Shown here piece after piece: positions 2,320 through 30,539 of a stretch of DNA of 32,000 nt. The DNA comes from Collibacillus ludicampi (GTDB lineage Bacteria; Bacillota; Bacilli; Tumebacillales; BOQE01): contig NZ_BOQE01000001.1 in assembly GCF_023705585.1 (NCBI RefSeq), forward strand, positions 2,418,710 through 2,450,709, in the 5' to 3' direction. Both the position numbers and the translations under genes were made by a program. The notes below the pieces were generated by a model that worked only from the letters and a program-made list of their open reading frames with translations, was not told the origin of the DNA and did not search any database. Each line of letters opens with the position of its first letter. Position 1 is the stretch's first letter.

Positions 2320-2519
2320 TCTGTTATTGATTTTTTGTGAGTGATGAAGCTCTTTTGTTTTAAATATATTTTCGGGCTGCCGGAAGAACCTAAATACCCG
2401 ATCACGAAAATCATACAACGAAAAATATTTTATTTTAAAAATAATATTAATTATTTAATATAGAATGAAGGTTTCCATAATATATGATATTATATATGAA
2501 GAGGGGAGGAGTGAAAAGA

Positions 2520-3308
2520 ATGAGGAAAGTGAAGATCAAATTTCGTGGAATGTTGCAAGTGATCGAAGCTGGTGTGAACACGGCAAACCATATCGTTGAG
2601 TTGCAAGGGAAACGTTATGACGCTGACAAGCTCCCTTTGGATGCCCCCGTGTCGGGAACAATTTATGGTGTCCTCCTGAATTACAAGGGGGCACTCGCCA
2701 CACTTGGGAATGCTGTCAATGAACCCCCTTATAAGGTAGCACCCAAGGCACCTGTCTTATATATCAAACCAGCAAATACGGTCATAGGTTACGGTATGCC
2801 TATCCCGTTACCTGATCATGTTCCGGCACTAGAGATCGGTGCAACCCTGGGCGTTGTGATCGGCCGAAAGGCTACTCGTGTGAGTGAGGAACAGGCGTTA
2901 ACTTATGTAGACGGTTACACCGTGGTCAATGATGTCAGTATTCCGCATACGAGTTTGTACCGACCGGCTGTAAGCCAAAAATCTCGTGATGGCTTTTGTC
3001 CGGTAGGACCCTGGGTGATTGAACGCGATGCCGTCGTAAATCCAGATGCATTAAGGGTGCGCGTGTACATCAACGGTGAGTTGCGGCAGGAAAATACCAC
3101 CGCTAACCTGATCCGTCCAATCCCGCGATTGATTGCTGAAATTACGGATTTTATGACGCTGAACATTGGAGACACGCTTTTGGTGGGGGTTCCTGAAGAT
3201 GCACCGCTTGCGAAGGCGGGTGATCATGTGCGCATCGAAATCGACAACATTGGTATTTTGGAAAATACGGTTGTGCATGAACGCGAACTCTACAAGGAGG
3301 CTAAATGA
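2520..3308 (+). CDS. hpaG1: FAH-family 2-hydroxyhepta-2,4-diene-1,7-dioate isomerase / OPET decarboxylase-like subunit (HpaG half 1)
   Basis: FAH fold motifs (YDADKLPLDAPVSGTIYGVLLNY..., YTVVNDVSIPHTSLYRPAVSQKSRDGFCPVGPW). RBS gaggggagga is placed for ATG 2520 rather than ORF start 2484. Confidence 0.82.
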   Translation: MRKVKIKFRGMLQVIEAGVNTANHIVELQGKRYDADKLPLDAPVSGTIYGVLLNYKGALATLGNAVNEPPYKVAPKAPVLYIKPANTVIGYGMPIPLPDHVPALEIGATLGVVIGRKATRVSEEQALTYVDGYTVVNDVSIPHTSLYRPAVSQKSRDGFCPVGPWVIERDAVVNPDALRVRVYINGELRQENTTANLIRPIPRLIAEITDFMTLNIGDTLLVGVPEDAPLAKAGDHVRIEIDNIGILENTVVHERELYKEAK

Positions 3309-4072
3309 TGAAACGAGCGCGAATTGCCTATCTGGGCGCGATCCATGAGGCTGTTGAAATGGACGGTCGCCTCAAACTGGATGATGGTCGTATTGTGGAG
3401 GAACATCAAGTGGTTTGGTTGCCACCCGTGCAACCTCGTACGGTGTTCGCCCTCGGTCTGAACTATGCGGATCACGCAAAGGAACTGTCGTTTAAAGCTC
3501 CAACTGAACCGCTTGTTTTTCTGAAAGGGCCTAATACGTTCGTCGGTCATCGGGCCCATACCCGTCGTCCGTCGGATGCGACTTACATGCACTATGAGTG
3601 TGAACTGGCTGTCGTAATGGGTCGTACGGCCCGTCATGTCAAACGCGAAGACGCTTATGATTATGTATTGGGTTATACTGTGGCAAATGATTACACCATT
3701 CGCGATTATTTAGAAAATTACTATCGGCCCAACCTGAGAGTCAAAAACCGTGACACATGTACGCCGATCGGACCATGGCTGGTAGATGCCAAAGATATTG
3801 CCGATCCGATGAATTTGACCTTGCGTACTTATGTGAACGGAAAGTTGACACAAGAAGGTAACACACGGGACATGATTTTCAGCATTCCCGTTCTGATCGA
3901 GTATTTGAGCAGTTTCATGACGCTTAATGCCGGAGATATCATTTTGACCGGAACTCCCGAAGGATTGATCGATACAAAAGTCGGTGACGAAGTTGTTACG
4001 GAAATCGAAAGCATAGGGAGATTGGTCAACACGATCGTTGGGGATGAATCTTTTAATGAAACTAACATGTAA
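3305..4072 (+). CDS. hpaG2: FAH-family decarboxylase/isomerase (HpaG half 2)
   Basis: GLNYADHAKELSFKAPTEPLVFLKGPNTFVGH...DYTIRDYLENYYRPNLRVKNRDTCTPIGPW...TGTPEG; ATGA overlap with the previous gene. Confidence 0.85.
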   Translation: MMKRARIAYLGAIHEAVEMDGRLKLDDGRIVEEHQVVWLPPVQPRTVFALGLNYADHAKELSFKAPTEPLVFLKGPNTFVGHRAHTRRPSDATYMHYECELAVVMGRTARHVKREDAYDYVLGYTVANDYTIRDYLENYYRPNLRVKNRDTCTPIGPWLVDAKDIADPMNLTLRTYVNGKLTQEGNTRDMIFSIPVLIEYLSSFMTLNAGDIILTGTPEGLIDTKVGDEVVTEIESIGRLVNTIVGDESFNETNM

Positions 4073-4084
4073 AGGAGTAAAGTC

Positions 4085-4471
4085 ATGCCACATTTTATCG
4101 TCGAATATACCAATAATATCAAGGCCGAAGCGGATATACCCGGTCTTCTCAAAAAGATCAATGATGTTTTCATCTCATATGACCATATTTTCCCAATAGG
4201 TGGAATTCGCTCGAGAGCCATCGAACTCAAAGATTATTGTGTGGCCGATGGAGCAGAGGACGATGCGTTTGTCCATGCTACTTTAAAGATTGGCGCAGGT
4301 CGATCCGCAGAAGATAAGAAGGCAGTCTGTGATGATCTCTTCGAAGTTATGAAGGAACATTTTGCAGACTTATTCTCTAAACGTTACTTGGCATTGTCAA
4401 TGGAGTTGATCGAATTTAGTGAGTTCGGTACTTATAAACACAACAATATCCATGCTCGTTTCAAAAAATAG
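4085..4471 (+). CDS. hpaF: 5-carboxymethyl-2-hydroxymuconate delta-isomerase
   Basis: MPHFIVEYTNNIKAEADIPGLLKKIND..., N-terminal Pro of the tautomerase superfamily; RBS AAAGGAG; cluster context. Confidence 0.87.
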   Translation: MPHFIVEYTNNIKAEADIPGLLKKINDVFISYDHIFPIGGIRSRAIELKDYCVADGAEDDAFVHATLKIGAGRSAEDKKAVCDDLFEVMKEHFADLFSKRYLALSMELIEFSEFGTYKHNNIHARFKK

Positions 4472-4732
4472 GTTCCGTCATTACGCTGCTGTTCAATTTT
4501 CAAGCAAACTTAGATGAACTGAAATGATGGATACCACAATCGCGCCGTACCGGGACTCTCGGTACTATCGATCCTACACGAATAATCAAAGATGTTTGCC
4601 ATACTCATAAGTTAATTTGCAATGAAGTCTGGTGTTGTGCGATTGTGGTTCAATACTTTTTAAGATTTTATTATCCATCAATATACCTTATTTTCGGAAA
4701 TGATAATTAATACAATAATTTCGAATAGTCTA

Positions 4733-4762
4733 TTGACAATCATATATGATTTTATATATTAT
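4733..4762 (+). promoter_or_regulatory. Candidate promoter with embedded palindromic operator
   Basis: TTGACA (4733-4738), perfect palindrome ATCATATATGAT (4739-4750), -10 TATTAT (4757-4762, 18-nt spacer) or TATATT (4755-4760, 16-nt spacer). Confidence 0.5.
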
Positions 4763-4968
4763 ATTCACAGGGTTATTAAATAAGGCTAAAATCGAGAAGG
4801 AGGCTAAGAGCTTGGACGATTGAACTTATAGAAACTTTATGGGTAGATTGCTATTGATGTAACCGTTATCACGAGAGTGGTAGACGAAGAAGTACTGGTA
4901 TGACAGCGAATGCATGTATGTATCGCTGAATCCTAAAAGAATTTTGATATCAATTGTTCGTTAAATCT

Positions 4969-4998
4969 TTGTACAATTTACAATAGACGTGATAGTAT
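4969..4998 (+). promoter_or_regulatory. Candidate promoter upstream of hpaE
   Basis: TTGTAC (4969-4974), 18-nt spacer, TAGTAT (4993-4998), followed at 5022 by the motif shared with the gntR upstream region. Confidence 0.35.
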
Positions 4999-5104
4999 CA
5001 TTTGGAGAAAAAACGATGTATTGAATCATATATTATTTCATATACTTTTTCGGCATTAAGAAAACGTTTCAAAAACATCAAGCAATGAGTAGGTGTTAAT
5101 TTAG

Positions 5105-6595
5105 ATGAGCAAGGTTAGAGTTGATCGAGTTCTTCACTACATTAACGGACAATTTGTTGAAGGAGTTTCGGGCAAACGTTTTGAGAATATGAATCCGTTT
5201 AACAACCAGGTGTTAAATGAAGTGGCAGAGGGTTTCAAGGAAGATATAGATTTAGCGGTACAAGCGGCACGAAAGGCTTTCGACCAAGGGCCATGGGGGA
5301 AGATGAGCGTCACCGATCGGTTAAAATATATTCTCAAGATTGCAGATTTGATCGAGACCTACAGTGAAGAATTATCGTATCTCGAATCGCTGGATACGGG
5401 TTTACCAATTAGCCAAACCAAGAAAATGGCGGCTCGTGCGGCGGAAAACTTCCGGTTTTATGCGGAAATGGTGAAGAGCCGGATGGTGGGAGAGGCTTAT
5501 CAAGTGGACGGAGATTTCATCAATTATACGATTCATAAACCCATTGGAGTTGCAGGTTTGATTACTCCCTGGAATGCTCCCTTTATGTTAGAAACTTGGA
5601 AAGTGGCTCCTGCATTGGCTACAGGTAATACCGTTGTTTTAAAACCAGCTGAATGGTCACCGCTTACGGCGAATAAACTCGCTGAAATCATTCATGAAGC
5701 CGGACTGCCGGAAGGCGTCTTTAACGTTGTACATGGTTTTGGGGAAACGGCTGGAGCATCTCTAGTCGCACATCCTAACGTTCGCTTAATCTCTTTTACT
5801 GGAGAAACGACAACTGGATCGGAAATTATTAAAAATAGTGCGGATACTTTGAAGAAAATTTCTATGGAGCTTGGTGGAAAATCACCGGCGATCGTCTTTG
5901 CCGATGCCGATTTAGAAAGTGCATTGGACGCAGTGGTATGGGGGATTTTCTCCTTCAATGGTGAACGTTGTACCGCAAATTCGCGTCTCTTCTTGCAAAA
6001 GCCCATTTATGATACGTTTGTTGAAGCATTAAAAGAACGTGTCTCCAATATCGTTGTCGGTGACCCTATGGATGAGTCTACAGAAGTGGGACCTTTAATT
6101 CATAAAAAACACTGGCAAAATGTGATGAACTATATTGACATTGCCCGTGCGGAATGTGCAGAAGTGTTCAGCGGATCGATTCCAGATGCATATCGAGCGG
6201 GTAATTATGTAGCGCCAACGCTTCTTTTAAATTGTCATAATCAAATGCGTGTAGCGCAAGAAGAGATCTTTGGACCGGTCATGGCTGTAATTCCTTTCGA
6301 TACGGAAGAAGAAGTATTGCAGATGGCTAATGATGTAAGATATGGTCTGGCCGCTTACGTTTGGACAAGTGATATTAAACGTGGACATCGCTTGGCACAA
6401 GCGATAGAAAGTGGAATGGTATGGATCAATTCACAAAATACAAGGGATTTGCGGATTCCTTTTGGAGGAACCAAACATAGTGGAATCGGGCGTGAAGGTG
6501 GACACTACAGCTTTGAATTCTATACAGAAACCCAAGTGATTCATGTCGCTATTGAGAACCACCATATCCCTAAATTCGGAAAAACAAAAAAGTAA
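5105..6595 (+). CDS. hpaE: 5-carboxymethyl-2-hydroxymuconate semialdehyde dehydrogenase
   Basis: Aldehyde dehydrogenase: GVAGLITPWNAPFMLETWKVAPALATGNTVVLKPAEWSP, MELGGKSPAIVFADADL, NGERCTANSR; cluster context. Confidence 0.9.
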   Translation: MSKVRVDRVLHYINGQFVEGVSGKRFENMNPFNNQVLNEVAEGFKEDIDLAVQAARKAFDQGPWGKMSVTDRLKYILKIADLIETYSEELSYLESLDTGLPISQTKKMAARAAENFRFYAEMVKSRMVGEAYQVDGDFINYTIHKPIGVAGLITPWNAPFMLETWKVAPALATGNTVVLKPAEWSPLTANKLAEIIHEAGLPEGVFNVVHGFGETAGASLVAHPNVRLISFTGETTTGSEIIKNSADTLKKISMELGGKSPAIVFADADLESALDAVVWGIFSFNGERCTANSRLFLQKPIYDTFVEALKERVSNIVVGDPMDESTEVGPLIHKKHWQNVMNYIDIARAECAEVFSGSIPDAYRAGNYVAPTLLLNCHNQMRVAQEEIFGPVMAVIPFDTEEEVLQMANDVRYGLAAYVWTSDIKRGHRLAQAIESGMVWINSQNTRDLRIPFGGTKHSGIGREGGHYSFEFYTETQVIHVAIENHHIPKFGKTKK

Positions 6596-6636
6596 GAAAT
6601 ATTAATAACAAATAGTAAAAATCAGGGGTGATCAAA

Positions 6637-8109
6637 ATGCCGGCTAAGACAGGACAACAATATATTGAACGAGTGGACAAAGCGCGATCCAATGTGTGGA
6701 TTGATGGAAAGAGGGTAGAGGGGAAGATTTCTGAACACCCTGCATTCAAAGGGGTCATGAAAAGCCAGGCTGCTCTCTACGACATGCAGCATGATAAAGA
6801 TAAACAGGATTTTATGACTTATAAATCACCGACAACAGGTGAACGAGTAGGAACATCTTTCCTACAACCCCGGACCAAAGAGGATTTGGAAAAACGCCGC
6901 AAGATGATTCAAGAATGGGCCCGTTTCAACGGAGGGATGATGGGGCGTTCTCCAGACTATATCAATGCCGGATTGATGGCTTATGGAGCGGCAGCGGAAA
7001 TGTTCGGAAAACAGGATCCCATGTTTGCCGAAAACATGCGGAATTATTATGAATACGCCCGTGAAAACGATTTATCGTTAACGCATACGCTAATCCAGCC
7101 TCAAGTCAATCGGGCAGTCAATTCGGCACAGCTTCCGGATCCGTATATCGCGGCGCGTATCGTTAAGAAAAATTCGGAAGGGGTTGTTATTCGGGGAGCA
7201 CGCTTGCTGGCGACACAAGGGGGAATCACCGATGAAATCATGGTGTTTCCTTCAACGGTTTTGAAGCAGTCAGATGATGAAAAACCATACGCATTTGCCT
7301 TCTGCATTCCGAATAATACACCCGGATTGAAATTTATTTGTAGAGAATCGTTTGATTACGGGAAATCCGCTTTCGATCATCCGTTGGGTTCCCGTTTTGA
7401 AGAAATGGATACGATTGTAGTCTTTGATGATGTAACTGTTCCGTGGGATCGCGTTTTTGCCCTTGGGGATGTTGAAATTTGCAATCGGGCCTATATCGAA
7501 AGTAACGCTCAAGTTCACATGACTCACCAAGTCGTATCTAAAAATATTGCGAAAACGGAGTTCATCCTTGGCATTCTACAGTTAATGGTAGAAACCATTA
7601 ATATTGGTCAGTTTCAACATGTACAGGAAAAAATGTCTGAGGTCATCATTGTCCTTGAAATCATGAAATCGTTGATGATTGCAGCAGAAACGAATGCCCA
7701 AGTAGATAAGTGGGGAATTATGACACCGGACTTTAAACCTTTAAATGTTGCCCGAAACTATTTCCCCAAAATGTATCCCCGGTTTATGGAGATCATGCAA
7801 TTGCTTGGAGCGAGCGGTTTGATGGCGATTCCAAATGAAGCAGACTTTAACTCTGAACTTCGTGCAGATCTGGATAAGTATTTGCAAGCCGCAAATTCGG
7901 ATGCTTATAACCGGGTTAAACTGTATCGATTAGCATGGGATACATGTATGAGTGCTTTTGGGTCGCGCCAAACGCTGTATGAGCGCTTTTTCTTCGGAGA
8001 TCCCGTCCGTATGGCTAGCGCTTTATACAACTGGTATGGTAAACAAGAATACGTGGATCGTGTCAAGGAATTTTTACAGCGTTCTGAAGAACTCGTGTTG
8101 AAGGGATAA
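6637..8109 (+). CDS. hpaB: 4-hydroxyphenylacetate 3-monooxygenase, oxygenase component
   Basis: HpaB-like: KSRAWIDGKRVEG-like N-terminus (SNVWIDGKRVEGKISEHPAFKGV), ADYDMQHDKDKQDFMTY-like region, HMTHQVVSKNIAKTEFILGI, GASGLMAIPNEADF. ORF can start at GTG 6628; AGGGGTG suits ATG 6637. Confidence 0.88.
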   Translation: MPAKTGQQYIERVDKARSNVWIDGKRVEGKISEHPAFKGVMKSQAALYDMQHDKDKQDFMTYKSPTTGERVGTSFLQPRTKEDLEKRRKMIQEWARFNGGMMGRSPDYINAGLMAYGAAAEMFGKQDPMFAENMRNYYEYARENDLSLTHTLIQPQVNRAVNSAQLPDPYIAARIVKKNSEGVVIRGARLLATQGGITDEIMVFPSTVLKQSDDEKPYAFAFCIPNNTPGLKFICRESFDYGKSAFDHPLGSRFEEMDTIVVFDDVTVPWDRVFALGDVEICNRAYIESNAQVHMTHQVVSKNIAKTEFILGILQLMVETINIGQFQHVQEKMSEVIIVLEIMKSLMIAAETNAQVDKWGIMTPDFKPLNVARNYFPKMYPRFMEIMQLLGASGLMAIPNEADFNSELRADLDKYLQAANSDAYNRVKLYRLAWDTCMSAFGSRQTLYERFFFGDPVRMASALYNWYGKQEYVDRVKEFLQRSEELVLKG

Positions 8110-8261
8110 TTATCTATATATAAAAAATTCATAATAATTAAAATTAATTGGATTTAATACAAATGAGAAATCTATTCCACTTCGTTCAACAAATAAAACG
8201 ATTGAACCCAAAGCTATAGGAAGATGTAAAAAATGAGTAAAAGGAGAGAGGTGTGTTATAA

Positions 8262-9245
8262 ATGAAATTTGACATTATTCGTTTAGCGCATGCCGAATTC
8301 AATGTAACTGATTTAGAACGAGCGAGGGATTTTTATGTCAATGCGCTTGGATTTATTGAAACAGAATCAGATTCTCATCATATTTATTTACGTGCTATCG
8401 AGGATGCCAATCATCACTGTCTTGTCTTGACGAAATCAGATGTACCGAGTGTGAATCATATCTCCTTCCGAGTCGGAACGGAAGAAGAATTAGATCGATT
8501 GACCCATTTTTTTGCTACCCAAAACTTGCCGATTCGTTGGCTTGAAAAAGAAGAAGAAAGGGGACAAGGGAGAGCCATCCGAATCCAGGATCCCGGCGGT
8601 ATTCCTGTCGAGTTCTTCTGTGAGATGGAAAAGGCTGAATGCATGCTTCAGAAATTTAATAAGCACTATGGAGCGAAAATCAAGCGCATTGATCACGCGA
8701 ATTGTAACGTTCGCGACATTGATAGGGTGAATCAGTGGTATACAGAGAATTTGGGATTCAAGTGTTCCGAATACACGGTTACAGGTCCGATCGACAATGA
8801 ACGGTTATGGGCTTCCTGGTTGCATCGTAAACCAAGTGTGCATGATTTAGCTCTGATTCATGAGAAAGGACCGCGCATTCATCACATTGGGTTCTGGATG
8901 GAAGATTCGAAATCGATTCTCGATGCTTGTGATTATTTATCGAGTTGCGGTTATTATTCGAGCATCGAGCGCACTCCGGGGCGTCATGGCACCTCTAATG
9001 CATTCTTTGTTTACCTTCGTGACCCTGATGGCCATAGATTGGAATTATACACCAGTGACTATTTCACAGGTGATCCGGATTGGGATCCGATTAAATGGCA
9101 TCTAAGCGATCCGCAACGTGCGACTTTATGGGGAGCAGAGCCCCCTATAAGCTGGAAAAAGGAAGCGATGCCTGTTCAAAATATCTTAACCGGTGAATTA
9201 ATGGAAATCGGTGAGCCCATGATATACAGCGAAATTAGAAATTAA
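8262..9245 (+). CDS. hpaD: 3,4-dihydroxyphenylacetate 2,3-dioxygenase, VOC/type I extradiol family
   Basis: Two VOC modules: LAHAEFNVTDLERARDFYVNALGF and IDHANCNVRDIDRVNQWYTENLGF; RIHHIGFWM, GRHGTSNAFFVYLRDPDGHRLELYTSDY. Confidence 0.88.
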   Translation: MKFDIIRLAHAEFNVTDLERARDFYVNALGFIETESDSHHIYLRAIEDANHHCLVLTKSDVPSVNHISFRVGTEEELDRLTHFFATQNLPIRWLEKEEERGQGRAIRIQDPGGIPVEFFCEMEKAECMLQKFNKHYGAKIKRIDHANCNVRDIDRVNQWYTENLGFKCSEYTVTGPIDNERLWASWLHRKPSVHDLALIHEKGPRIHHIGFWMEDSKSILDACDYLSSCGYYSSIERTPGRHGTSNAFFVYLRDPDGHRLELYTSDYFTGDPDWDPIKWHLSDPQRATLWGAEPPISWKKEAMPVQNILTGELMEIGEPMIYSEIRN

Positions 9246-9445: not shown

Positions 9446-10126
9446 TCAATCATTTTCACTTTCCGATTCATTCCCCATCTTTTTTTGGAATGCCTTTGCA
9501 GTAGCCATAAAATGTTTCCTTACTAGCTCTTCGATTTCCCTTGAAGGGGCTTTTTCCTTAATCATTTGTATGATAAGGGCATGTTCCCCAATGGATTCCC
9601 GAGCACGATGAGGTACATAGGAAAAACCATATTGACGAAATCGCGGCATGAGTTCCCAAGTAGACTGAATCCTTTCTATGAGTAAAGCATTACCGCTATG
9701 TTCAACAATAATCCCATGAAATCTACGATTTAAAATTCCAAATTGATCAAGTTCAAAATGAAAAAGAGCCTCCTTCATTTCTTCATTCATCTGCTCGAGA
9801 AGTTTAATGGATTCTTCCGTGATGGATCGGGAGCTCAGAGCGGTTGCAAACCCCTCTAAGACTGCTAATACCGATAAATTATCCAAATATTCAGACTCAT
9901 TTACGGTACTCACAATTGCTCCACTGTACGGTTTATACTGAATCAAGCCGTCGGCTTCTAATTGACGAATCGCCTCCCTTACGGGAATGGGACTTAATTG
10001 TAGTTCTTTAGCAATCTGATCAATAACAATGCGATGACCTGGTCCATAGATTCCGTCTAGAATGCGCGAACGTAGAATTTCATAGGCATATTGCTTTTTA
10101 CTAATGATGTTCTTTTTCTTTTCCAT
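9446..10126 (-). CDS. GntR-family (FadR/FCD subfamily) transcriptional regulator, probable hpa regulator
   Basis: ILDGIYGPGHRIVIDQIAKELQLSPIPVREAIRQLEADGLIQYKPYSGAIV followed by an FCD-type helical domain (ALIIDMIKEK-type residues, HRARESIGEHALIIQMI). Confidence 0.87.
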   Translation of the reverse strand: MEKKKNIISKKQYAYEILRSRILDGIYGPGHRIVIDQIAKELQLSPIPVREAIRQLEADGLIQYKPYSGAIVSTVNESEYLDNLSVLAVLEGFATALSSRSITEESIKLLEQMNEEMKEALFHFELDQFGILNRRFHGIIVEHSGNALLIERIQSTWELMPRFRQYGFSYVPHRARESIGEHALIIQMIKEKAPSREIEELVRKHFMATAKAFQKKMGNESESEND

Positions 10127-10161: not shown

Positions 10162-10272
10162 GTGGTTTATAAACAAGTACATCAGCTTAATAAGATGCAA
10201 ATCAATTCATTGGTGCAGGAATATATGTTCGCATGACGAATGATTAGGTTAAAGATAAGAGGTGAGAAAAAT

Positions 10273-11544
10273 ATGGGAGTCGCATTTCGCTTTGTTCATA
10301 CAGCGGATTTGCACTTGGACAGTCCGTTTATAGGAATCGGGCAATCCTCCCCCGTCATTCAAGAAAGATTACGGGAGGCAACATTCGCGGCGTTTCACCG
10401 CATCGTCGATCTGTGCATTCGTGAAAACGTTGATTTTTTAACGATCGGCGGGGATGTGTTCGACGGAGCTAACCGCAGTTTGCGAGCACAAGTGCGCTTT
10501 CGTGATGAACTGAAGCGTCTGGGTGAGGCGGGTATACGCTCATTCGTTATTCACGGGAACCATGACCATCAAGGTGGGGAACGGATACGTCTGGAGTGGC
10601 CCGAGTTTGTGCACATCTTCTCCGCCCAATCGGTGGAAGCCGTTCCGGTCTTTCGTGAGGGACAGGAAATCGCGCGCATCTATGGGATCAGCTATCCGCA
10701 CGCGGAGGTTACGGAAAATTTGGCAAAACGGTTTAAAAGGGATGCGGACGCACCTTACGCGATCGCGCTTTTGCATACAAACGTGGGGAGCGAAAATGAA
10801 CATGCCAATTACGCCCCCTGTACGCTCAGTGATTTGAAAAAATCGGGGTTTGATTTTTGGGGACTTGGTCATATTCATAAACGCGCTTTGTTGCACGAGG
10901 AACATCCAGTCATTCTTTATCCGGGCAATCCCCAGGGACGCCATCCGAATGAAACGGGGGCACGTGGATGTTATCTGGTCGAGGTAGACGAGAATGGCCA
11001 TACGGTCTGCACGTTTCATGAGACGGACGACGTCCGCTGGGTCATTGAGGAAATCACGATCGACGGACTGACAAGGGAAGAGGAATTGTACGCTCGATTA
11101 TTGGAACAAATGGATACGGTTTATCGACAACACCGGGGGCGTACCGTGATCGTGCGCATACTGCTCAAGGGTCGGGGGCCCCTCCATTCTTACGTCAAAG
11201 TACGAGACATGAGGGAAGACCTTCTCGCAGCATTACGCGAAAACGCCCCGGTCGATGAGGATACATACATTTTCTGTGAATCGATTCAAACCCGAACAAA
11301 ACCTCTCATCGATAAAGAGATCTTTCGCAATGATCCAGGTCTGCTTGGAGATGTTCTGGCATTGGCTGAATCTTGTCGCACGGAGGAAGGAAGACTTGAT
11401 TTCTTGAGGAAAGCGATTCAACCTCTCTTCGAATCGGCTTCGGCGAGGCAGGTACTGGAACAACCAAGCGATGAAGAACTTCTTCAGTGGTTAGCGGAGG
11501 CTGAAGATGTATTATTGGAACTGTTAGGGAAGGAAGAGGATTAA
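10273..11544 (+). CDS. yhaO: DNA repair exonuclease, SbcD/YhaO-like metallophosphoesterase
   Basis: FVHTADLHLDSPF, GGDVFDGANRS, IHGNHDHQGG, GLGHIHKR, YPGNPQGRHPNETG. Start chosen at ATG 10273 behind AGGTGAG. Confidence 0.88.
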   Translation: MGVAFRFVHTADLHLDSPFIGIGQSSPVIQERLREATFAAFHRIVDLCIRENVDFLTIGGDVFDGANRSLRAQVRFRDELKRLGEAGIRSFVIHGNHDHQGGERIRLEWPEFVHIFSAQSVEAVPVFREGQEIARIYGISYPHAEVTENLAKRFKRDADAPYAIALLHTNVGSENEHANYAPCTLSDLKKSGFDFWGLGHIHKRALLHEEHPVILYPGNPQGRHPNETGARGCYLVEVDENGHTVCTFHETDDVRWVIEEITIDGLTREEELYARLLEQMDTVYRQHRGRTVIVRILLKGRGPLHSYVKVRDMREDLLAALRENAPVDEDTYIFCESIQTRTKPLIDKEIFRNDPGLLGDVLALAESCRTEEGRLDFLRKAIQPLFESASARQVLEQPSDEELLQWLAEAEDVLLELLGKEED

Positions 11545-14500
11545 TGCGAATCATCGATTTGCACATTGACGGATTCGGCCATTTTCAAAATCTGCGAGTG
11601 GAACTGTCTCCCGGGTTCATGGTGATCGAAGGACCGAATGAGGCGGGAAAAAGTACATTGCTCGCTTTCATCCGCGGACTTTTGTTCGGTTTGGACAAAT
11701 CGCTCGTACGCCGGTACGAACCGCTTGGAGGCAAATCTTATGGTGGAAGGATGAGGGTTTGCGACCACAACGGACACACCTATACATTGGAAAGAACATT
11801 CGGCCGCAAAGGGGAACCGGTCATCTACCTTCCGGATGGAACACGCGAGGGAAAATCTTTTCTTCCCATACTGACGGGTCCCATTCATTCCTCTGTCTTT
11901 TACAACGTGTTTGCTTTCGGACTCAACGAATTAGAAAAGCTGGAAAGCCTGCAGCATCAAGAGATCCATGAGAGGATATACAGCACAGGTATGGGGCTAA
12001 GTTCGGTCTCACTCGCGGATCTTTTTCGCTACCTGGAAGGAGAGATGGAGAAAAGATACAAACCTCGGGGCAGTACGCAAGTGATTGCCGAATCATTGCG
12101 CACATTAAAAGAATTGCAGAAGAAAATCAGAAGCTATCAAGATTTACCAGAATCGTATAACCGATTGCAAGAGGAATGGCGCGAGATTGAAATACAATTG
12201 TCCCGGCTTGAGAGAGAAAGAAAAGAGAAAGAAGAAAGCATCGCGCACGCAAAGATTTTGCTAGAATTGCGACGCGTGCTGGATGAACGAAACGAAATCG
12301 TTGCGCGTCTCCACTCGTTGCCGCAAACCGGTCGTTTTCCCGCCGACGGACTTACACGTTTGGAGCAGATTGAACAAAGGGAAGCGGAACTACGTGTGGA
12401 GGAACTTCACTTACAAGAAGAACGGCGTGAGTGGAATAGCAAATGGGACAAACTTGCTTCCCCATCCGTTTTTCTGGCGCACGAGAGGGATTATCTCCGC
12501 CTCCGTTCCCTGCGCGAATCCCTGGCAGCCGATCTCAATGAACGTGCTGCCAAGGAAGAATCTCTCGCGATGATGAATCGCGAATTGCATGTACTTCTTG
12601 ACAAGCTAGGTGATCGACGTTCTCTCGATTGGATTGAGCGACTGGATACATCGCTGCCGCAGCGGGAGTGGATTCGCATCCAGGAAAAGCTGCTGTCAAC
12701 TGCAGAACAGGTAGTTAAGGACGTATCTGAACGTTATGAACGGGCCAAAGAAGAATATGATCAAATACAAAACGAATATACGGAAAAGCTGAATGAAATC
12801 CGTGCTTTTGAGTCTTCCTCCCCCTACACGAAAGAGCAGATCGAAGAAAGGGAACTCCTCTTGCAAAGAGTCAGCGAACTGCGACAGGATATTACGATGT
12901 TGCAAAAGGATGAAGCGCAATTGTGTCGTTCACGGGAGGAGCGGACGAAGACACTTGCTCTTTTGATGAACAATGGGAAGGAAACAAGTTCCGCGTATCG
13001 TTGGATCGGTATAGGCCTGACGTTTGTGGGAGTGTTTAGCATTCTCTTGGCCTGGTGGTTTTCCGTTTCAGTCGTTGCTGGACTGGGAATCGGAGCGATT
13101 GCAGGCGGAGGATTGATCTTCTTCTTGAAACGAAAAGGTGAAGAACAATCATCTCCCCGGCAGTTTATATCGGAGACACAGAAGGAATTAGAGCGACTGG
13201 ACCAGGAGATCGCCCACATACGAACGATTCTGGAGGAGAAAAGAGATGAAGCGCGGGACTGTGTGTACAGACTGACAGGTGAAAATCAGCTATCGGAAGA
13301 GAAAATGAAATTCCTTTTTAAGGAAATTAAAGAATTACGTGCAGCCTGGGCGCAACTGAATTGGAGAAAAGCGGCACTCGACGATTTGACAAAAAAGAAG
13401 CTGCAATGTGAGCAGAGGATCCGCTCACTTGCAACTTTATTGGAAAAAGAACAGAGGGAACGGGACAAACGATTCGCTGAATGGGACGCATGGCTGACGG
13501 AGCAAGGGTTGCCCCCGGGGCTGACGGCGATCAGCGTATTGGAAGTGTTTCATGTGATCGAACAAGCCCAACAGCTCGTGAAGCGGAAGCAAGAAGTGAG
13601 CAAAATTCTGAAAGAAATAAACGCGAGGATCAAGGAGACAAGGGATCTTTTGCAAACGTTTCTTGAAAATATAGGAAGAGCACCTATCGATGAAGGGCAG
13701 GAACTCGTTACTTTCGATTCTTTAGAGCAAGAGTATGTGCAGGCAAGTAAGAATGAACAAGAGAGAACACATCTTCTCACTGAATGGGAGAAGTTGGAGA
13801 AAAGGTTGCACATTTGGGAAAAGCAAATGAATGATCTGCGAGAAAAAAAAGAGAAGCTGTTCGGAGTGGCGGGTGTGAAGGATGAAGAATCGTTTCGAAG
13901 GTGCGCCCAACTATGGGCAGAGAGATGTTCACTAGAAAAAGAGTTGACGATCATTGATGCGCGACTAGAAACGATTGCGGGGTCAAAAGCACGATTAGAA
14001 AAACTTTTGCCATCATGCATGGAAGACGAGATCATGACGCTTCAGTCCCGGATTGCCAAGTGGGAAGAAGTAATCGAAAATGAACGGATCATGGTTTCGC
14101 AGTTGCAACAACGCAAGGGGGAGTTAAAACAACAGAGAGAAGAGATGGAAAACAGCCATGAATTAGCCGATTTGCGACTGCAAGTCCAACAATACAAAGA
14201 AAAAGTGAGAGTGGAGGCACACGAGTGGGCGGTCTTTGCGATTGCCAGAGCTCTTTTACAAGAAGCGAAAGAACGTTATGAGCGGGAAAAGCAGCCTTCC
14301 GTGTTGCGCAAAGCGTCTGTCGCATTTCAGACGATCACGCAGGGGCAATTTCGACACATCTGGAGCCCTTATCATGAGCAACAGCAGATCGAGGTGGAGA
14401 CGGCGGAGGGAAGGCGTCTGGAATTGCAAATGTTAAGCAGGGGTACGGCCGAACAATTGTATCTCTCGATGCGGATTGCCCTCATTCAAGAGATGGCGGA

Positions 14501-14717
14501 ACAGGGAATCGAACTGCCTGTTGTCATGGATGATATATTTGTCAACTTTGATCCGATGCGTCTCCGCTCATCGCTCGCTGCATTGCGTGAATTGGCGAAA
14601 ACGCATCAAATCCTGTTTTTTACTTGCCATCCGCATATGGCTTCTCAAATGGTGCAGGAGATCCCTGGGGCTTCGCGCCTTTGTCTTGAAGACCGTCAAT
14701 TGACCCCCGCACGGTAA
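11544..14717 (+). CDS. yhaN: SMC/Rad50-like AAA ATPase, YhaN-like
   Basis: Walker A EGPNEAGKSTLLAFIRGLLFG, long coiled coils, C-terminal LSRGTAEQLYLSMRIAL...ELPVVMDDIFVNFD; 1-nt TAATG overlap with yhaO-like gene. Confidence 0.87.
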   Translation: MRIIDLHIDGFGHFQNLRVELSPGFMVIEGPNEAGKSTLLAFIRGLLFGLDKSLVRRYEPLGGKSYGGRMRVCDHNGHTYTLERTFGRKGEPVIYLPDGTREGKSFLPILTGPIHSSVFYNVFAFGLNELEKLESLQHQEIHERIYSTGMGLSSVSLADLFRYLEGEMEKRYKPRGSTQVIAESLRTLKELQKKIRSYQDLPESYNRLQEEWREIEIQLSRLERERKEKEESIAHAKILLELRRVLDERNEIVARLHSLPQTGRFPADGLTRLEQIEQREAELRVEELHLQEERREWNSKWDKLASPSVFLAHERDYLRLRSLRESLAADLNERAAKEESLAMMNRELHVLLDKLGDRRSLDWIERLDTSLPQREWIRIQEKLLSTAEQVVKDVSERYERAKEEYDQIQNEYTEKLNEIRAFESSSPYTKEQIEERELLLQRVSELRQDITMLQKDEAQLCRSREERTKTLALLMNNGKETSSAYRWIGIGLTFVGVFSILLAWWFSVSVVAGLGIGAIAGGGLIFFLKRKGEEQSSPRQFISETQKELERLDQEIAHIRTILEEKRDEARDCVYRLTGENQLSEEKMKFLFKEIKELRAAWAQLNWRKAALDDLTKKKLQCEQRIRSLATLLEKEQRERDKRFAEWDAWLTEQGLPPGLTAISVLEVFHVIEQAQQLVKRKQEVSKILKEINARIKETRDLLQTFLENIGRAPIDEGQELVTFDSLEQEYVQASKNEQERTHLLTEWEKLEKRLHIWEKQMNDLREKKEKLFGVAGVKDEESFRRCAQLWAERCSLEKELTIIDARLETIAGSKARLEKLLPSCMEDEIMTLQSRIAKWEEVIENERIMVSQLQQRKGELKQQREEMENSHELADLRLQVQQYKEKVRVEAHEWAVFAIARALLQEAKERYEREKQPSVLRKASVAFQTITQGQFRHIWSPYHEQQQIEVETAEGRRLELQMLSRGTAEQLYLSMRIALIQEMAEQGIELPVVMDDIFVNFDPMRLRSSLAALRELAKTHQILFFTCHPHMASQMVQEIPGASRLCLEDRQLTPAR

Positions 14718-28516: not shown

Positions 28517-28540
28517 ACCCGTCGTTCGACGGGTTTTTTC
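28517..28540 (+). terminator. Intrinsic terminator
   Basis: ACCCGTC GTTC GACGGGT followed by TTTTT. Confidence 0.85.
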
Positions 28541-28580: not shown

Positions 28581-29687
28581 ATGAAAAAAAGGTTGGCGGC
28601 AAACACTAAGATAGCAGATGTGTCATATCAAGAAGCCGCCCTGATCGGGCAACGATTGCTTACATGGTATGAAGAGAAAAAACGGGATCTCCCATGGAGG
28701 CGCACGCGGGATCCCTATAAAATTTGGGTGTCCGAGGTGATGTTGCAACAAACGCGTGTGGAAACAGTCATTCCCTATTGGGAACGTTTTATCGATAAGT
28801 TTCCCACGATACAAGCATTAGCTCATGCACCAGAGGAAGAAGTGCTCAAAGCCTGGGAGGGGCTTGGTTACTACTCGCGAGCACGGAATTTGCAAGCAGC
28901 TGTACGAGAAGTGGAAGAGAGATATGGAGGCCAAGTCCCTGATACGCTTGAAGAAATCTCCTCTTTGCCGGGAGTAGGTTCTTATACGGCAGGTGCCGTT
29001 CTCTCAATCGCCTATGATGTGGATGTGCCTGCTGTGGATGGAAACGTGTTACGCGTTCTCGCACGCCTCTTTCTCATCGAGCAAGATATCATGAAACAGC
29101 GCGTGCGCAAACGTTTTGAAGAACTGGCCGAATTTCTGATTCCTCCCGGAAGAGCGGCTTCGTTCAATCAGGCATTGATGGAGTTGGGAGCGACTGTATG
29201 CATTCCCAAGGTACCTCGTTGTCCGCAATGTCCGTTGCAATCGTTATGCAGAGCGTATGCGGAAGGGATGCAAGAAGAGCTTCCCGTGAAAGGCAAGAAA
29301 AAACCGCCTCGCCCCGTCGATCTGGTTACAGGGATTGTACGATCGGGAGATCGAGTGCTGATCGTGAAACGACCCCTGCAAGGATTGTTAGCTGGCATGT
29401 GGGAGTTTCCCAGTTTGGAAATAAATGAGCGGGTGACGATCGAGGAGAACCTCCAGTCGCTCTTCGATCGATTGGGCCAAAGGATCGAGGTAGAAACGTT
29501 TTTTGCCAAAGTGGAACATACATTCAGTCATATCCATTGGAATTTACATGCCTATTTGTGCAAACCAATCCTGCCGCTTGTTCCGGAAACGGAAGAGATG
29601 CGATGGGTCAACGTCTACGAGTTGCATCAGTATGCATTCCCTGTTGCACATACCAAACTCATCCAAGCTCTCAATGGAATGGTTTAA
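28581..29687 (+). CDS. mutY: A/G-specific adenine DNA glycosylase
   Basis: RDLPWRRTRDPYKIWVSEVMLQQTRVETVIPYWERF, LPGVGSYTAGAVLSIAYDVDVPAVDGNVLRVLARL, CxxxxxxCPxCPLQSLC, C-terminal NUDIX-like domain. Confidence 0.95.
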   Translation: MKKRLAANTKIADVSYQEAALIGQRLLTWYEEKKRDLPWRRTRDPYKIWVSEVMLQQTRVETVIPYWERFIDKFPTIQALAHAPEEEVLKAWEGLGYYSRARNLQAAVREVEERYGGQVPDTLEEISSLPGVGSYTAGAVLSIAYDVDVPAVDGNVLRVLARLFLIEQDIMKQRVRKRFEELAEFLIPPGRAASFNQALMELGATVCIPKVPRCPQCPLQSLCRAYAEGMQEELPVKGKKKPPRPVDLVTGIVRSGDRVLIVKRPLQGLLAGMWEFPSLEINERVTIEENLQSLFDRLGQRIEVETFFAKVEHTFSHIHWNLHAYLCKPILPLVPETEEMRWVNVYELHQYAFPVAHTKLIQALNGMV

Positions 29688-29716
29688 AGACTTAAGGAGA
29701 TAGGAATGTGATAACG

Positions 29717-30028
29717 ATGACCACCATTCGTGGATTCTTCGAATATCGCGTGGATCCGGCAAAGCGGGAAGATTATTTGAAACTGGTTCCCAAGATTCGG
29801 TCTATACAAACGAAATACGGACTGACAGCATATGAAATCATCGAAAGTGTTCAAAGAGAAAATCAATTTGTCGAGACATTCCGTGTGGAATCGATGGAAG
29901 CGTATCGGAGGATCGAGGAGAAACAAGAACTTGATCCGGAATATCTCGCCTGTCAGCAAGAACGAGATGCCTGTATTCTTGGCGGAAGAGGTACAATGAA
30001 AGTATGGTTCTTCCGTGACATTGTTTAG
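29717..30028 (+). CDS. Small protein, possible dimeric alpha/beta-barrel (ABM/NIPSNAP-like)
   Basis: MTTIRGFFEYRVDPAKREDYLKLVPKIRSIQTKYGLTAYEIIESVQRENQFVETFRVESMEAYRRIEE... Confidence 0.45.
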   Translation: MTTIRGFFEYRVDPAKREDYLKLVPKIRSIQTKYGLTAYEIIESVQRENQFVETFRVESMEAYRRIEEKQELDPEYLACQQERDACILGGRGTMKVWFFRDIV

Positions 30029-30065
30029 TATGAAAACCCTGTCAGTCGAAAAAGGAGAGAAGATA

Positions 30066-30359
30066 ATGATTCAGATCTCTGATCGTGCCGCGGAAGTGAT
30101 CAAAGAGATTCGCGCGGAACAAGGTGATGAACACCTAGATGTGCGCATTTCGGTCGTACCTGGTTGAGGGGGCGTAAGATGCCGTTTGACTCTGGATGAG
30201 TCAACTGAAAACGATCAAATTATGGAACAAAAAGGGATTACTTTCTTGCTTGATTCATTCGCTGTCGCCTATATCGAAAATGGCTTGACCATCGATTATG
30301 ACGAATACGAAGATAACTTCATTGTACAAATCAAAGGAATTAAGGATTCCTGTTGTTAA
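30066..30359 (+). CDS. HesB/IscA-like protein, candidate selenoprotein with in-frame TGA (30165-30167)
   Basis: RBS AAAGGAG; translation MIQISDRAAEVIKEIRAEQGDEHLDVRISVVPG[TGA]GGVRCRLTLDESTENDQIMEQKGITFLLDSFAVAYIENGLTIDYDEYEDNFIVQIKGIKDSCC*; one stop only, family resemblance continues on both sides. Confidence 0.7.
30186..30204 (+). promoter_or_regulatory. Candidate bacterial SECIS stem-loop
   Basis: TTGACTC (30186-30192) tggat GAGTCAA (30198-30204); loop starts 25 nt after the TGA with G at loop position 2. Confidence 0.55.
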
Positions 30360-30539
30360 CATGGTGAACGATTCTATCCGTGGATAAAGCGGCGTATACT
30401 GCGGATAGAATGTTGTTCGAAAAGGGGGACAAACAGGGGCGGGCAGTTCGGGGATTTTTACAGATATAAACAAGCTAGGGATCGCTTTGCAAATTGAATG
30501 ATAAGTGAAAACCACCAAATTTATTGGGAAAGGCGGGGT

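What the first reader, a model, noticed from the sequence alone, without database searches (positions are those of the whole stretch)
30066..30359. Candidate HesB/IscA-like selenoprotein: single in-frame TGA at the conserved Cys position
The ORF track misses this gene because of one TGA at 30165-30167. Reading through gives a coherent 97-residue HesB-like protein with a strong RBS (AAAGGAG), intact similarity on both sides (..VVPG-U-GGVRCRLTLDES..) and a C-terminal CC. HesB-like selenoproteins with Sec replacing the conserved Cys are an established minority family. A random nonsense mutation would be unlikely to fall precisely in the conserved glycine-flanked Cys site. If real, it implies a Sec-decoding machinery in this lineage.
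Basis: partly seen in the sequence, partly recalled or inferred. Interest (0 to 1): 0.85.

Follow-up and report, generated by a model that had tools for sequence, protein, structure and literature searches.

The report
Unannotated HesB-like selenoprotein gene
A small iron-sulfur-carrier-like gene in the aerobic soil bacterium Collibacillus ludicampi almost certainly encodes selenocysteine at its in-frame TGA, so it is a real gene that annotation pipelines split or miss, but it belongs to a selenoprotein type known for about 20 years.

Summary
Window 30066-30359 (+) is a 97-codon PF01521 (HesB/IscA) gene with one in-frame TGA (30165-30167). That codon aligns with the invariant first Cys of A-type Fe-S carriers (E. 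coli IscA Cys35).

The TGA is not an error or a nonsense mutation. It sits at the same codon in 8 distinct orthologous lineages (42-90 % aa identity to the window protein) from three Alicyclobacillaceae genera: Collibacillus ludicampi (the window's source), Tumebacillus lacus and Effusibacillus dendaii. The synteny is conserved (mutY ... HesB - Bax1-I). dN/dS is about 0.12 on both sides of the TGA. TGA is an ordinary stop elsewhere in the window (8 of 26 genes).

A hairpin (30186-30204, UUGACUC-UGGAU-GAGUCAA) starts 18 nt after the UGA and meets all four published bacterial SECIS constraints. It shows compensatory changes and has the same sequence in a Desulfuromonas HesB-like TGA gene. The motif is absent from Cys-containing homologues.

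The protein scores below the curated cutoffs of TIGR01911 and NF038090, and in databases it exists only as fragments or TGA=Trp mistranslations. I could not test whether selA/B/C/D are present in these genomes.

Verdict: a genuine, unannotated member of a known selenoprotein kind in a new, aerobic clade. Interest is moderate.

The parts
30051..30057 (+). Shine-Dalgarno sequence AAAGGAG, 8 nt upstream of the ATG
   Evidence: Read directly from the sequence. The purine-rich block is conserved in L005 (alignment A1).
30066..30359 (+). Complete coding sequence of the HesB/IscA-like selenoprotein (97 codons plus TAA), read through one UGA
   Evidence: Orthologues of the same length and frame occur in 8 lineages. 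dN/dS is about 0.12 both before and after the TGA.
30165..30167 (+). In-frame TGA, the inferred selenocysteine codon (residue 34), at the position of the invariant first Cys of A-type carriers
   Evidence: Alignment to IscA Cys35. TGA is conserved in all orthologues and in distant HesB-like TGA genes. TGA is a normal stop for 8 of 26 genes in the window and never occurs in-frame in them.
30186..30204 (+). Bacterial SECIS-type hairpin UUGACUC-UGGAU-GAGUCAA (loop 30193-30197), inside the coding sequence, encoding L-T-L-D-E-S
   Evidence: Folds at -8.1 kcal/mol on its own. The loop starts 25 nt after the UGA, is 5 nt long and has G at positions 2-3, which meets the published bSECIS model (PMC13188914). 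The 6 inner pairs are paired in 14 of 14 sequences, and 2 pairs show compensatory changes. The sequence is unique in the window, with 0.1 matches expected by chance. The motif co-occurs with TGA in 19 loci and is absent from the 3 Cys-type loci.
30351..30356 (+). C-terminal Cys96-Cys97 codons. The terminal Cys is the only other conserved Cys of the subfamily (all orthologues end ...S-[SC]-C-stop).
   Evidence: orthologue C-termini. Cys96 aligns to IscA Cys99.
29708..30028 (+). Conserved upstream neighbour, a 106-aa ORF with weak ABM/Dabb-like similarity. Context only; no functional link was shown.
   Evidence: A 103-105-aa ORF sits directly upstream of the HesB gene in L005, L006, L008, L015 and L017/18 but is absent in E. 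dendaii and L019. Pfam ABM gives E = 0.05 (0.004 in T. lacus), below threshold.
28581..29687 (+). mutY, the syntenic anchor and probable first gene of the same transcription unit. Context only.
   Evidence: The exact protein is C. ludicampi GIM46803.1. mutY lies upstream of the TGA gene in L005, L008, L017, L019 and L021. A terminator-like hairpin at 28517-28534 precedes it, and the gaps between the three genes are 20 and 37 nt.

Best explanation
Window 30066-30359 is a functional gene of Collibacillus ludicampi for a 97-residue HesB/IscA-fold selenoprotein.

How the recoding would work: during translation the UGA at codon 34 is read as selenocysteine. The hairpin that starts 18 nt downstream (UUGACUC-UGGAU-GAGUCAA, itself encoding L-T-L-D-E-S) would be bound by SelB·GTP·Sec-tRNA(Sec) and delivered to the ribosome, as for other bacterial selenoprotein mRNAs. 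This step is inferred from the anatomy; it is not shown.

What the product would do: Sec34 sits where A-type Fe-S carriers have their first cluster-ligating Cys, and a single conserved Cys is the last residue. It most likely acts as a Sec/Cys-ligated Fe-S (or Fe) carrier or redox module, possibly as a dimer that supplies 2 x (Sec + Cys) ligands. The function is an inference from homology only.

The gene belongs to a subfamily in Alicyclobacillaceae (Collibacillus, Tumebacillus, Effusibacillus and uncultured relatives) in which every member seen carries Sec. Gene callers split these genes in two or translate the TGA as Trp.
For: (1) TGA is at the same codon (P-G-TGA-G-G) in 8 distinct orthologous lineages, 42-90 % aa identity to the window protein, from isolates and from JGI, ENA and Logan assemblies.
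(2) Synteny is conserved in the longer contigs: mutY - (small ORF) - gene - Bax1-I - GntR - GT4.
(3) dN/dS is 0.12 for codons 1-33 and 0.12 for codons 35-97 (window against L006), so the part after the TGA is translated in the same frame.
(4) TGA ends 8 of 26 solid genes in the window and never occurs in-frame in them, so the codon is not reassigned.
(5) The hairpin meets all four constraints of the published bSECIS model.
(6) Its six inner pairs are 100 % paired in 14 sequences. A-U changes to G-C three times and C-G to U-A twice. Controls with the 3' partner slid by 1-3 columns give 14-46 % pairing.
(7) Synonymous change in the 7 hairpin codons is about 10-fold lower than in the rest of the gene (dS 0.2 against about 2).
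(8) The same 19-nt hairpin at the same spacing follows the TGA of a Desulfuromonas HesB-like gene of the classical UxGP type, and near-identical hairpins follow the TGA in three metagenomic ones. Desulfuromonas is a genus with a documented HesB-like selenoprotein (PMC1794560).
(9) The motif GRYTCTGGAYGARYY occurs once per TGA-HesB gene in 19 loci and is absent from the 3 loci whose HesB homologue has Cys.
(10) The TGA aligns to IscA Cys35 and Cys96 to IscA Cys99.
(11) A second PF01521 gene about 7 kb downstream has TGA at the same position and its own version of the hairpin, with both sides of the stem changed (UUGGUUC-UGGAU-GAACCAA).
Against: No tRNA-Sec, selA, selB or selD lies in the window or in about 30 kb of flanking sequence. 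Their presence elsewhere in the C. ludicampi, T. lacus or E. dendaii genomes could not be tested.

The protein scores below the curated cutoffs of both selenoprotein HesB models (TIGR01911 29.6 against 66.35; NF038090 41.7 against 85) and of TIGR00049 (46.5 against 58.8).

The window protein has U-G-G-V, not the U-x-G-P motif listed for the family.

The hairpin overlaps a conserved peptide motif (L-x-L-D-E-S), so part of its nucleotide conservation is protein-driven. The E. dendaii version is weak when folded alone (-4.0 kcal/mol).

The hosts are aerobes, in which selenoproteins are said to be rare (PMC13188914). There is no experimental evidence of Se incorporation.
Confidence: 0.9

Rival explanations
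1. The gene is a pseudogene, a recent nonsense mutation or a sequencing error. On this reading the TGA truncates a former Cys-containing HesB gene and the downstream part is not translated.
For: Gene callers treat it this way, reporting fragments of 45-50 aa and 57 aa. No Sec machinery was seen in the sequence available.
Against: The identical TGA position recurs in 8 orthologous lineages from three genera and in independent assemblies. The region downstream of the TGA has dN/dS of about 0.12, the same as upstream. No Cys-containing orthologue exists among 1.84 billion representatives: the nearest relatives are all TGA-split fragments or TGA=Trp calls. A structured, covarying element follows the TGA.
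Confidence: 0.02
2. The UGA is read through or recoded, but not as selenocysteine. This could be near-cognate Trp or Cys insertion stimulated by the downstream hairpin, or local TGA=Trp/Gly decoding, giving a full-length protein without selenium.
For: Full-length translation is supported, but the identity of residue 34 is not shown by any data here. Sec machinery is untested in these genomes. The hosts are aerobic.
Against: TGA is a normal stop in the window. The hairpin has the same sequence and spacing as the one in a HesB-like TGA gene from Desulfuromonas, a genus with a documented HesB-like selenoprotein, and it fits the SelB-type bSECIS model. The recoded position is exactly the Cys/Sec-interchangeable ligand site. 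Trp or Gly would not be tolerated there in A-type carriers (established knowledge of IscA Cys35). SelA is widespread in aerobic Bacilli.
Confidence: 0.06
3. Two separate small proteins are made: an N-terminal 33-aa peptide ending at the TGA and a C-terminal peptide of about 57-63 aa started at an internal TTG, ATG or GTG.
For: Databases hold such C-terminal fragments as predicted proteins (P0002-P0006, P0009, P0014).
Against: The internal start differs between lineages (TTG at codon 41 in the window; ATG, TTG or CTG at codon 38 or 41 elsewhere). It has no Shine-Dalgarno sequence and lies inside the hairpin in the window. The two parts are always in the same frame and together form one PF01521 domain. 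Neither half is a fold on its own.
Confidence: 0.02

Closest known systems
HesB-like selenoproteins (NCBIfam TIGR01911 HesB_rel_seleno and NF038090 IscA_HesB_Se), known from Deltaproteobacteria, Clostridia, Symbiobacterium and Methanococcus (PMC1794560, PMC13188914)
   Same: Both have the PF01521 fold. Sec is encoded by a TGA at the first conserved Cys of HesB/IscA. The in-frame SECIS hairpin has the same core sequence (GACUC-UGGAU-GAGUC), spacing and encoded motif (L-T-L-D-E-S) as in the Desulfuromonas and metagenomic members retrieved here. The protein is small (about 100 aa) with a Cys near the C-terminus.
   Different: It scores well below both curated cutoffs (29.6 against 66.35; 41.7 against 85) and is only 35 % identical to the UxGP-type members retrieved. 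The window protein has U-G-G-V rather than U-x-G-P. The C-terminus is a short ...S-S/C-C-stop instead of a Gly/Cys/Ser-rich tail. It is found in aerobic, spore-forming Alicyclobacillaceae rather than in the anaerobes that dominate the known list. No Cys-form orthologues were detected in this subfamily.
A-type Fe-S cluster carriers IscA/SufA/ErpA (TIGR00049; PDB 1S98/1R94 E. coli IscA, 1NWB Aq_1857, 2APN HI1723)
   Same: Same fold and length. Best PDB E-value is 2.6e-09. The first ligand position and the Cys99-equivalent align.
   Different: The first ligand is Sec instead of Cys. The C-terminal C-x-C motif is reduced to one conserved terminal Cys. The score is below the TIGR00049 cutoff (46.5 against 58.8). 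Fe-S binding is untested.
E. coli fdhF-type bacterial SECIS and the bSECISearch consensus model
   Same: Both are stem-loops in the coding sequence just 3' of the UGA, with a small apical loop carrying G-G/U at its start and a 16-37 nt spacing. The window element has a 5-nt loop UGGAU, a 6-7 bp stem, 25 nt spacing and -8.1 kcal/mol.
   Different: There is no sequence similarity to the fdhF element. No Rfam family covers it. SelB binding is inferred, not shown.

Membership tests
Pfam PF01521 Fe-S_biosyn (HesB/IscA superfamily) | Score at or above Pfam gathering threshold | tested here: met
   40.5 bits against 26.3, residues 2-86 (TGA replaced by Cys).
HesB-like selenoprotein (literature sense: Sec/Cys pair + SECIS + TGA homologues) | In-frame TGA aligned with the conserved Cys of Cys-containing homologues | tested here: met
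   Residue 34 aligns to the Cys of GGCSG/SGCSG in 1NWB, 2APN and 1S98. The Cys-type homologues L001, L002 and L004 have C at this column.
HesB-like selenoprotein (literature sense: Sec/Cys pair + SECIS + TGA homologues) | TGA-containing homologues in other organisms at the same position | tested here: met
   8 orthologous lineages, 4 distinct distant lineages L003, L009/L010, L011/L012 and L013, and W-translated database entries.
HesB-like selenoprotein (literature sense: Sec/Cys pair + SECIS + TGA homologues) | Downstream bSECIS element fitting the consensus model (loop 3-9 nt, stem 4-16 bp, G in the first two loop positions, 16-37 nt spacing, MFE <= -7.5 kcal/mol) | tested here: met
   5-nt loop UGGAU, 6-7 bp stem, 25 nt spacing, -8.1 kcal/mol. 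Criteria taken from PMC13188914. Covariation shown.
HesB-like selenoprotein (literature sense: Sec/Cys pair + SECIS + TGA homologues) | Host genome encodes selA, selB, selC (tRNA-Sec) and selD | not testable with these tools
   None are present in the window or flanks.
HesB-like selenoprotein (literature sense: Sec/Cys pair + SECIS + TGA homologues) | Selenium actually incorporated (75Se labelling or mass spectrometry) | not testable with these tools
   This needs an experiment.
NCBIfam TIGR01911 HesB_rel_seleno | Score at or above the curated cutoff (66.35 bits) | tested here: not met
   29.6 bits. For comparison, the Desulfuromonas TGA gene scores 46.8, also below the cutoff, with Cys substituted for Sec.
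NCBIfam TIGR01911 HesB_rel_seleno | U-x-G-P motif listed for the family (PMC13188914, Table 1) | tested here: not met
   The window has U-G-G-V. The orthologues in E. dendaii and L019 do have U-G-G-P.
NCBIfam NF038090 IscA_HesB_Se | Score at or above the curated cutoff (85 bits) | tested here: not met
   41.7 bits. The Desulfuromonas gene scores 68.5 and paralog 2 scores 44.2.
A-type Fe-S carrier (TIGR00049; IscA/SufA/ErpA) | Three conserved Cys ligands (C...C-x-C) and a score at or above the cutoff (58.8 bits) | tested here: not met
   46.5 bits. The first ligand is Sec, and only one C-terminal Cys is conserved across the subfamily.

The most novel reading that the evidence does not exclude
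This Alicyclobacillaceae clade could be a distinct subfamily in which every member carries Sec (no Cys orthologues were found). It is kept in aerobic, spore-forming Bacilli and is reduced to just two chalcogen ligands: Sec34 and the C-terminal Cys. On this reading it would not work as a classical Fe-S carrier. It might instead be a selenenyl-sulfide redox or Se/S-relay protein, or a dimeric Sec2Cys2 [2Fe-2S] carrier. It might be tied to the mutY / ABM-like neighbours and to a second, Cys-less Sec paralogue (YqkB-like) in Collibacillus. That would make these organisms a tractable aerobic model for why Sec is kept at an Fe-S ligand site.
Probability: 0.2. Interest if true: 0.6.

Novelty: new member of a known kind. 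Interest (0 to 1): 0.4.

Why it matters
The result adds a selenoprotein gene, and by inference the Sec-decoding trait, to Collibacillus, Tumebacillus and Effusibacillus. No paper in the searched library links these aerobic soil spore-formers to selenocysteine.

It shows that a whole clade of HesB-like selenoproteins escapes the curated models (TIGR01911, NF038090). In a collection of 15 billion proteins these genes exist only as 56-64-aa fragments or as TGA=Trp artefacts. That annotation gap is concrete and fixable: lower the model cutoffs or add a new model, and use the GRYUCUGGAYGARYY hairpin as a flag.

It also gives a clean natural data set for SECIS structure, with the same hairpin carrying compensatory changes in orthologues and a paralogue.

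It does not change what is known about how Sec is decoded or what HesB-like selenoproteins do.

Tried and rejected
(1) Codon reassignment (TGA = Trp or Gly) was rejected. 8 of 26 well-supported genes in the window end in TGA and none has it in-frame.

(2) tRNA-Sec or known RNA families near the gene: none found. ARAGORN gave no hit in the window or in 12 loci, and Rfam gave nothing at gathering threshold or at E <= 10.

(3) Sec machinery in the window: NCBIfam annotation of 20 ORFs found an hpa pathway, SbcD-like protein, PBP1A, ScpC, Mn-SOD and others, but no sel genes.

(4) Finding SelA of the host: I searched with Bacillus sp. NRRL B-14911 SelA, taken from the supplement of PMC1794560. All 120 listed hits were Bacillaceae, and none came from the contigs of 3,991,423, 3,454,394 or 270,776 bp that fingerprint the three genomes. 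This is uninformative, not negative.

(5) Genome and metagenome pattern scans for close relatives returned only distant Cys-type Verrucomicrobia and distant TGA-type genes. The close relatives came from the exhaustive HMMER search instead.

(6) I recalled that ABC transporters with phosphonate-type binding proteins accompany selenium loci. The transporter after paralogue 2 turned out to be an ordinary TauABC/TauD sulfonate system (SsuA_fam 182.6 against 163.5), so the lead was rejected.

(7) Looking up U-containing full-length proteins to see whether RefSeq already annotates the gene failed, because the tool does not accept 'U'.

(8) A scan of the window for other genes interrupted by a TGA found no credible candidate besides this one.

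(9) Structure prediction was not run. The tools would not accept the Cys-substituted sequence, the output gives no inter-residue distances, and Pfam plus the PDB alignment already establish the fold.

Full report
**1. The observation.**
The window has ATG at 30066, an AAAGGAG Shine-Dalgarno sequence at 30051-30057, one in-frame TGA at 30165-30167 (GGT TGA GGG) and a TAA stop at 30357-30359. The mechanical ORF list shows only two fragments, 30015-30167 and 30186-30359. With Cys in place of the TGA, the 97-residue product matches Pfam PF01521 (Fe-S_biosyn) above threshold (40.5 against 26.3 bits). phmmer against PDB chains aligns residue 34 (the TGA) to the Cys of 'GGCSG'/'SGCSG' in Aquifex Aq_1857 (1NWB), H. 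influenzae HI1723 (2APN) and E. coli IscA/YfhF (1S98, Cys35). It also aligns Cys96 to IscA Cys99.

**2. Source organism.**
The MutY protein encoded at 28581-29687 is identical to GIM46803.1/WP_282199857.1 of Collibacillus ludicampi (TaxID 2771369; Bacilli, Alicyclobacillaceae). This species is described as an aerobic, moderately thermophilic endospore-former (PMC11123200). The window's gene content agrees with that description: a complete 4-hydroxyphenylacetate oxygenase pathway, Mn-SOD, PBP1A and a SleB-like protein. A JGI metagenome contig (L008/L022/L023) is 99.5 % identical over 11.8 kb and has no differences in the 421 nt around the gene. A sequencing error is therefore excluded.

**3. 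Not a reassigned codon.**
Eight of the 26 well-supported genes in the window end in TGA, and none contains it in-frame.

**4. Conservation of the TGA.**
A word-indexed search of 5.8 billion protein clusters found only three relatives: an identical 57-aa C-terminal fragment, an 88 %-identical 57-aa fragment, and a 114-aa protein with Trp at the position. The DNA behind all three has TGA at the aligned codon. The 'Trp' and the 17-residue tail came from a gene caller that read TGA as Trp.

An exhaustive HMMER search of 1.84 billion representatives gave 69 hits. The nearest are 56-61-aa fragments that begin just after the Sec position and end '...SSC', or full-length proteins with 'G-W-GG'. I fetched the DNA for five of the fragment clusters.

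Every one of the resulting 8 distinct lineages reads ...P-G-TGA-G-G... at the same codon. The proteins are 95-97 codons long, end in a terminal Cys, and are 42-90 % identical to the window protein. Two of the lineages are named isolates: Tumebacillus lacus (JAPMLT010000005.1) and Effusibacillus dendaii skT53 (AP023366.1), an aerobically grown spore-former with only weak anaerobic growth. In the longer contigs the synteny is conserved: mutY - (103-106-aa ORF in most) - gene - Bax1-I - GntR - GT4, with YfhS, FabL-like and SASP genes further on. No Cys-containing orthologue of this subfamily appeared in either search.

**5. Both halves are translated.**
Window against L006 (67 % aa identity) gives dN/dS = 0.235/2.02 for codons 1-33 and 0.232/1.90 for codons 35-97. 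Window against L005 gives 0.19 and 0.22. The sequence after the TGA is therefore under the same purifying selection, in the same frame, as the sequence before it. This excludes a pseudogene, and it argues against independent translation of the two parts.

**6. The SECIS element.**
A hairpin, UUGACUC-UGGAU-GAGUCAA (30186-30204), starts 18 nt after the UGA and is predicted in every lineage. I scored it against the published bacterial SECIS model: loop 3-9 nt, stem 4-16 bp, G in the first two loop positions, 16-37 nt between the UGA and the loop, and MFE <= -7.5 kcal/mol (PMC13188914). The window element has a 5-nt loop with G at positions 2-3, 6-7 bp, 25 nt spacing and -8.1 kcal/mol.

On a 14-sequence alignment the six inner pairs are paired in every sequence. 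Two pairs change on both sides (A-U to G-C three times, C-G to U-A twice) and others change to G·U. When the 3' partner is slid by 1-3 columns, pairing falls to 14-46 %. Synonymous divergence in the seven hairpin codons is about ten-fold lower than in the rest of the gene.

The same 19-nt hairpin at the same spacing follows the TGA of a Desulfuromonas HesB-like gene (G-F-G-TGA-G-G-P), and near-identical hairpins follow the TGA in three metagenomic ones. Desulfuromonas is a genus with a documented HesB-like selenoprotein (PMC1794560). The degenerate motif GRYTCTGGAYGARYY occurs exactly once per TGA-containing HesB gene in 19 loci. It is absent from the three loci whose homologue has Cys (L001, L002, L004). 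The exact core is unique in the window, with 0.1 matches expected by chance.

One caveat applies. The hairpin also encodes the conserved peptide L-x-L-D-E-S, so part of its conservation is protein-driven. The coupled changes T to A/V with S to P (ACU...UCA to GCU...CCA or GUU...CCA) are what a paired RNA predicts.

**7. A second selenoprotein gene nearby (outside the window).**
About 7 kb downstream in the near-identical JGI contig and in L005 lies another PF01521 gene, which JGI names 'YqkB'. It reads M-E-G-G-TGA-S-A-T-M, with its TGA at the same column as in the window gene. Its own hairpin is UUGGUUC-UGGAU-GAACCAA, 21 nt after the UGA, and it has no C-terminal Cys. Its only database relatives are two 64-aa fragments. 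Two independent TGA-plus-SECIS genes in one genome strengthen the inference that the organism decodes Sec.

**8. What could not be shown.**
No tRNA-Sec, selA, selB or selD lies in the window or in about 30 kb of neighbouring sequence. I could not reach the rest of the three genomes. A SelA search with a Bacillus sp. NRRL B-14911 query listed only Bacillaceae among its 120 rows. That search does show that the Sec trait is common in aerobic Bacilli. The presence of the machinery in this lineage is therefore inferred from points 4-7 and was not observed.

**9. Mechanism.**
Shown here:
- a single reading frame under selection across a conserved UGA;
- a conserved, covarying hairpin at SECIS distance;
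- the UGA sits at the Cys35-equivalent ligand position.

Inferred:
- SelB·GTP·Sec-tRNA(Sec) binds the hairpin and inserts Sec34;
- the product is an A-type-carrier-like protein that uses Sec34 and the C-terminal Cys (Cys96 aligns to IscA Cys99; only the terminal Cys is conserved) to bind Fe or an Fe-S cluster, possibly as a dimer, or to cycle through a selenenyl-sulfide.

The tight spacing mutY - ORF106 - gene (20 and 37 nt), with a terminator-like site upstream of mutY, suggests co-transcription, but this was not tested.

**10. Comparison with known families.**
The gene works like, and is homologous to, the HesB-like selenoproteins (TIGR01911, NF038090). It nevertheless scores below both curated cutoffs (29.6 against 66.35; 41.7 against 85) and below TIGR00049 (46.5 against 58.8). 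The window protein also lacks the U-x-G-P motif. Even the Desulfuromonas TGA gene is sub-threshold when Cys is substituted for Sec (68.5 against 85), so the cutoffs are strict.

I therefore file it as a PF01521 selenoprotein of the HesB-like kind in the literature sense: a Sec/Cys pair, a SECIS element and TGA-containing homologues. It is not a member of either NCBIfam model. Its distinctive features are:
- a short ...SSC C-terminus;
- Sec in every member found;
- restriction to aerobic Alicyclobacillaceae, whereas the known list is dominated by anaerobes.

**11. Verdict.**
It is a new member, forming a new clade, of a selenoprotein kind described about two decades ago, and it is currently mis-annotated everywhere I looked. 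That is useful for annotation and for selenoproteome surveys, and mildly surprising for aerobic spore-formers. It is not a new principle. Interest 0.4.

Noticed in passing
Outside the window (about 37027-37340 if extended); L008 16842-17153, L022 18447-18758, L023 9884-10195, L005 8528-8839: A second PF01521 ('YqkB-like') gene has an in-frame TGA at the same Cys column (MEGG-TGA-SATM). Its own SECIS is UUGGUUC-UGGAU-GAACCAA, 21 nt downstream, and it has no C-terminal Cys. It is known only as 64-aa fragments in databases.
   Followed up: partly
window 29708-30028 (+): A conserved 103-106-aa ORF lies directly upstream of the selenoprotein gene in Collibacillus, Tumebacillus and several uncultured relatives, but is absent in E. 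dendaii and L019. It has only sub-threshold ABM/Dabb-like similarity, plus a spurious MFS_3 hit. It may be a functional partner.
   Followed up: partly
Proteins P0001, P0007, P0010, P0011, P0012, P0019, P0021, P0024, P0070; loci L006, L007: Many HesB-like proteins in the large protein collection carry 'G-W-G-G'. For P0001 the DNA shows that its short Logan contigs were translated with TGA = Trp; the others were not checked at the DNA level but follow the same pattern. Such entries would be hidden selenoproteins, and in P0001 the true TGA stop is also read through, adding a false 17-residue tail.
   Followed up: partly
window 2484-9245 (+): A complete 4-hydroxyphenylacetate meta-cleavage cluster is present: HpaG N- and C-terminal homologues, a 5-carboxymethyl-2-hydroxymuconate isomerase, HpaE, HpaB and HpaD, with a divergent GntR regulator at 9446-10126 (-).
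   Followed up: no
L008 17465-20174; L023 10507-14218: A TauABC-type sulfonate ABC transporter plus a TauD dioxygenase lies immediately after the second Sec-HesB gene. The permease and binding protein show weak, sub-threshold similarity to SaoP and SaoX, whose Sao system includes the selenoproteins SaoB and SaoC. I judged it an ordinary sulfonate system.
   Followed up: yes
window 30360-30420; alignment A1 columns 330-385: The 3' flank of the gene contains an inverted repeat (ATTCTATCCG...CGGATAGAAT). A block GGCGTATACT within it is conserved even in the 67 %-identity relative L006. It may be a terminator or a regulatory site and was not analysed.
   Followed up: no
window 11544-14717 (+) and 10240-11544 (+): A 1057-aa ORF with no NCBIfam match follows an SbcD/Mre11-like nuclease gene. 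It is presumably a divergent SbcC/Rad50-type ATPase.
   Followed up: no
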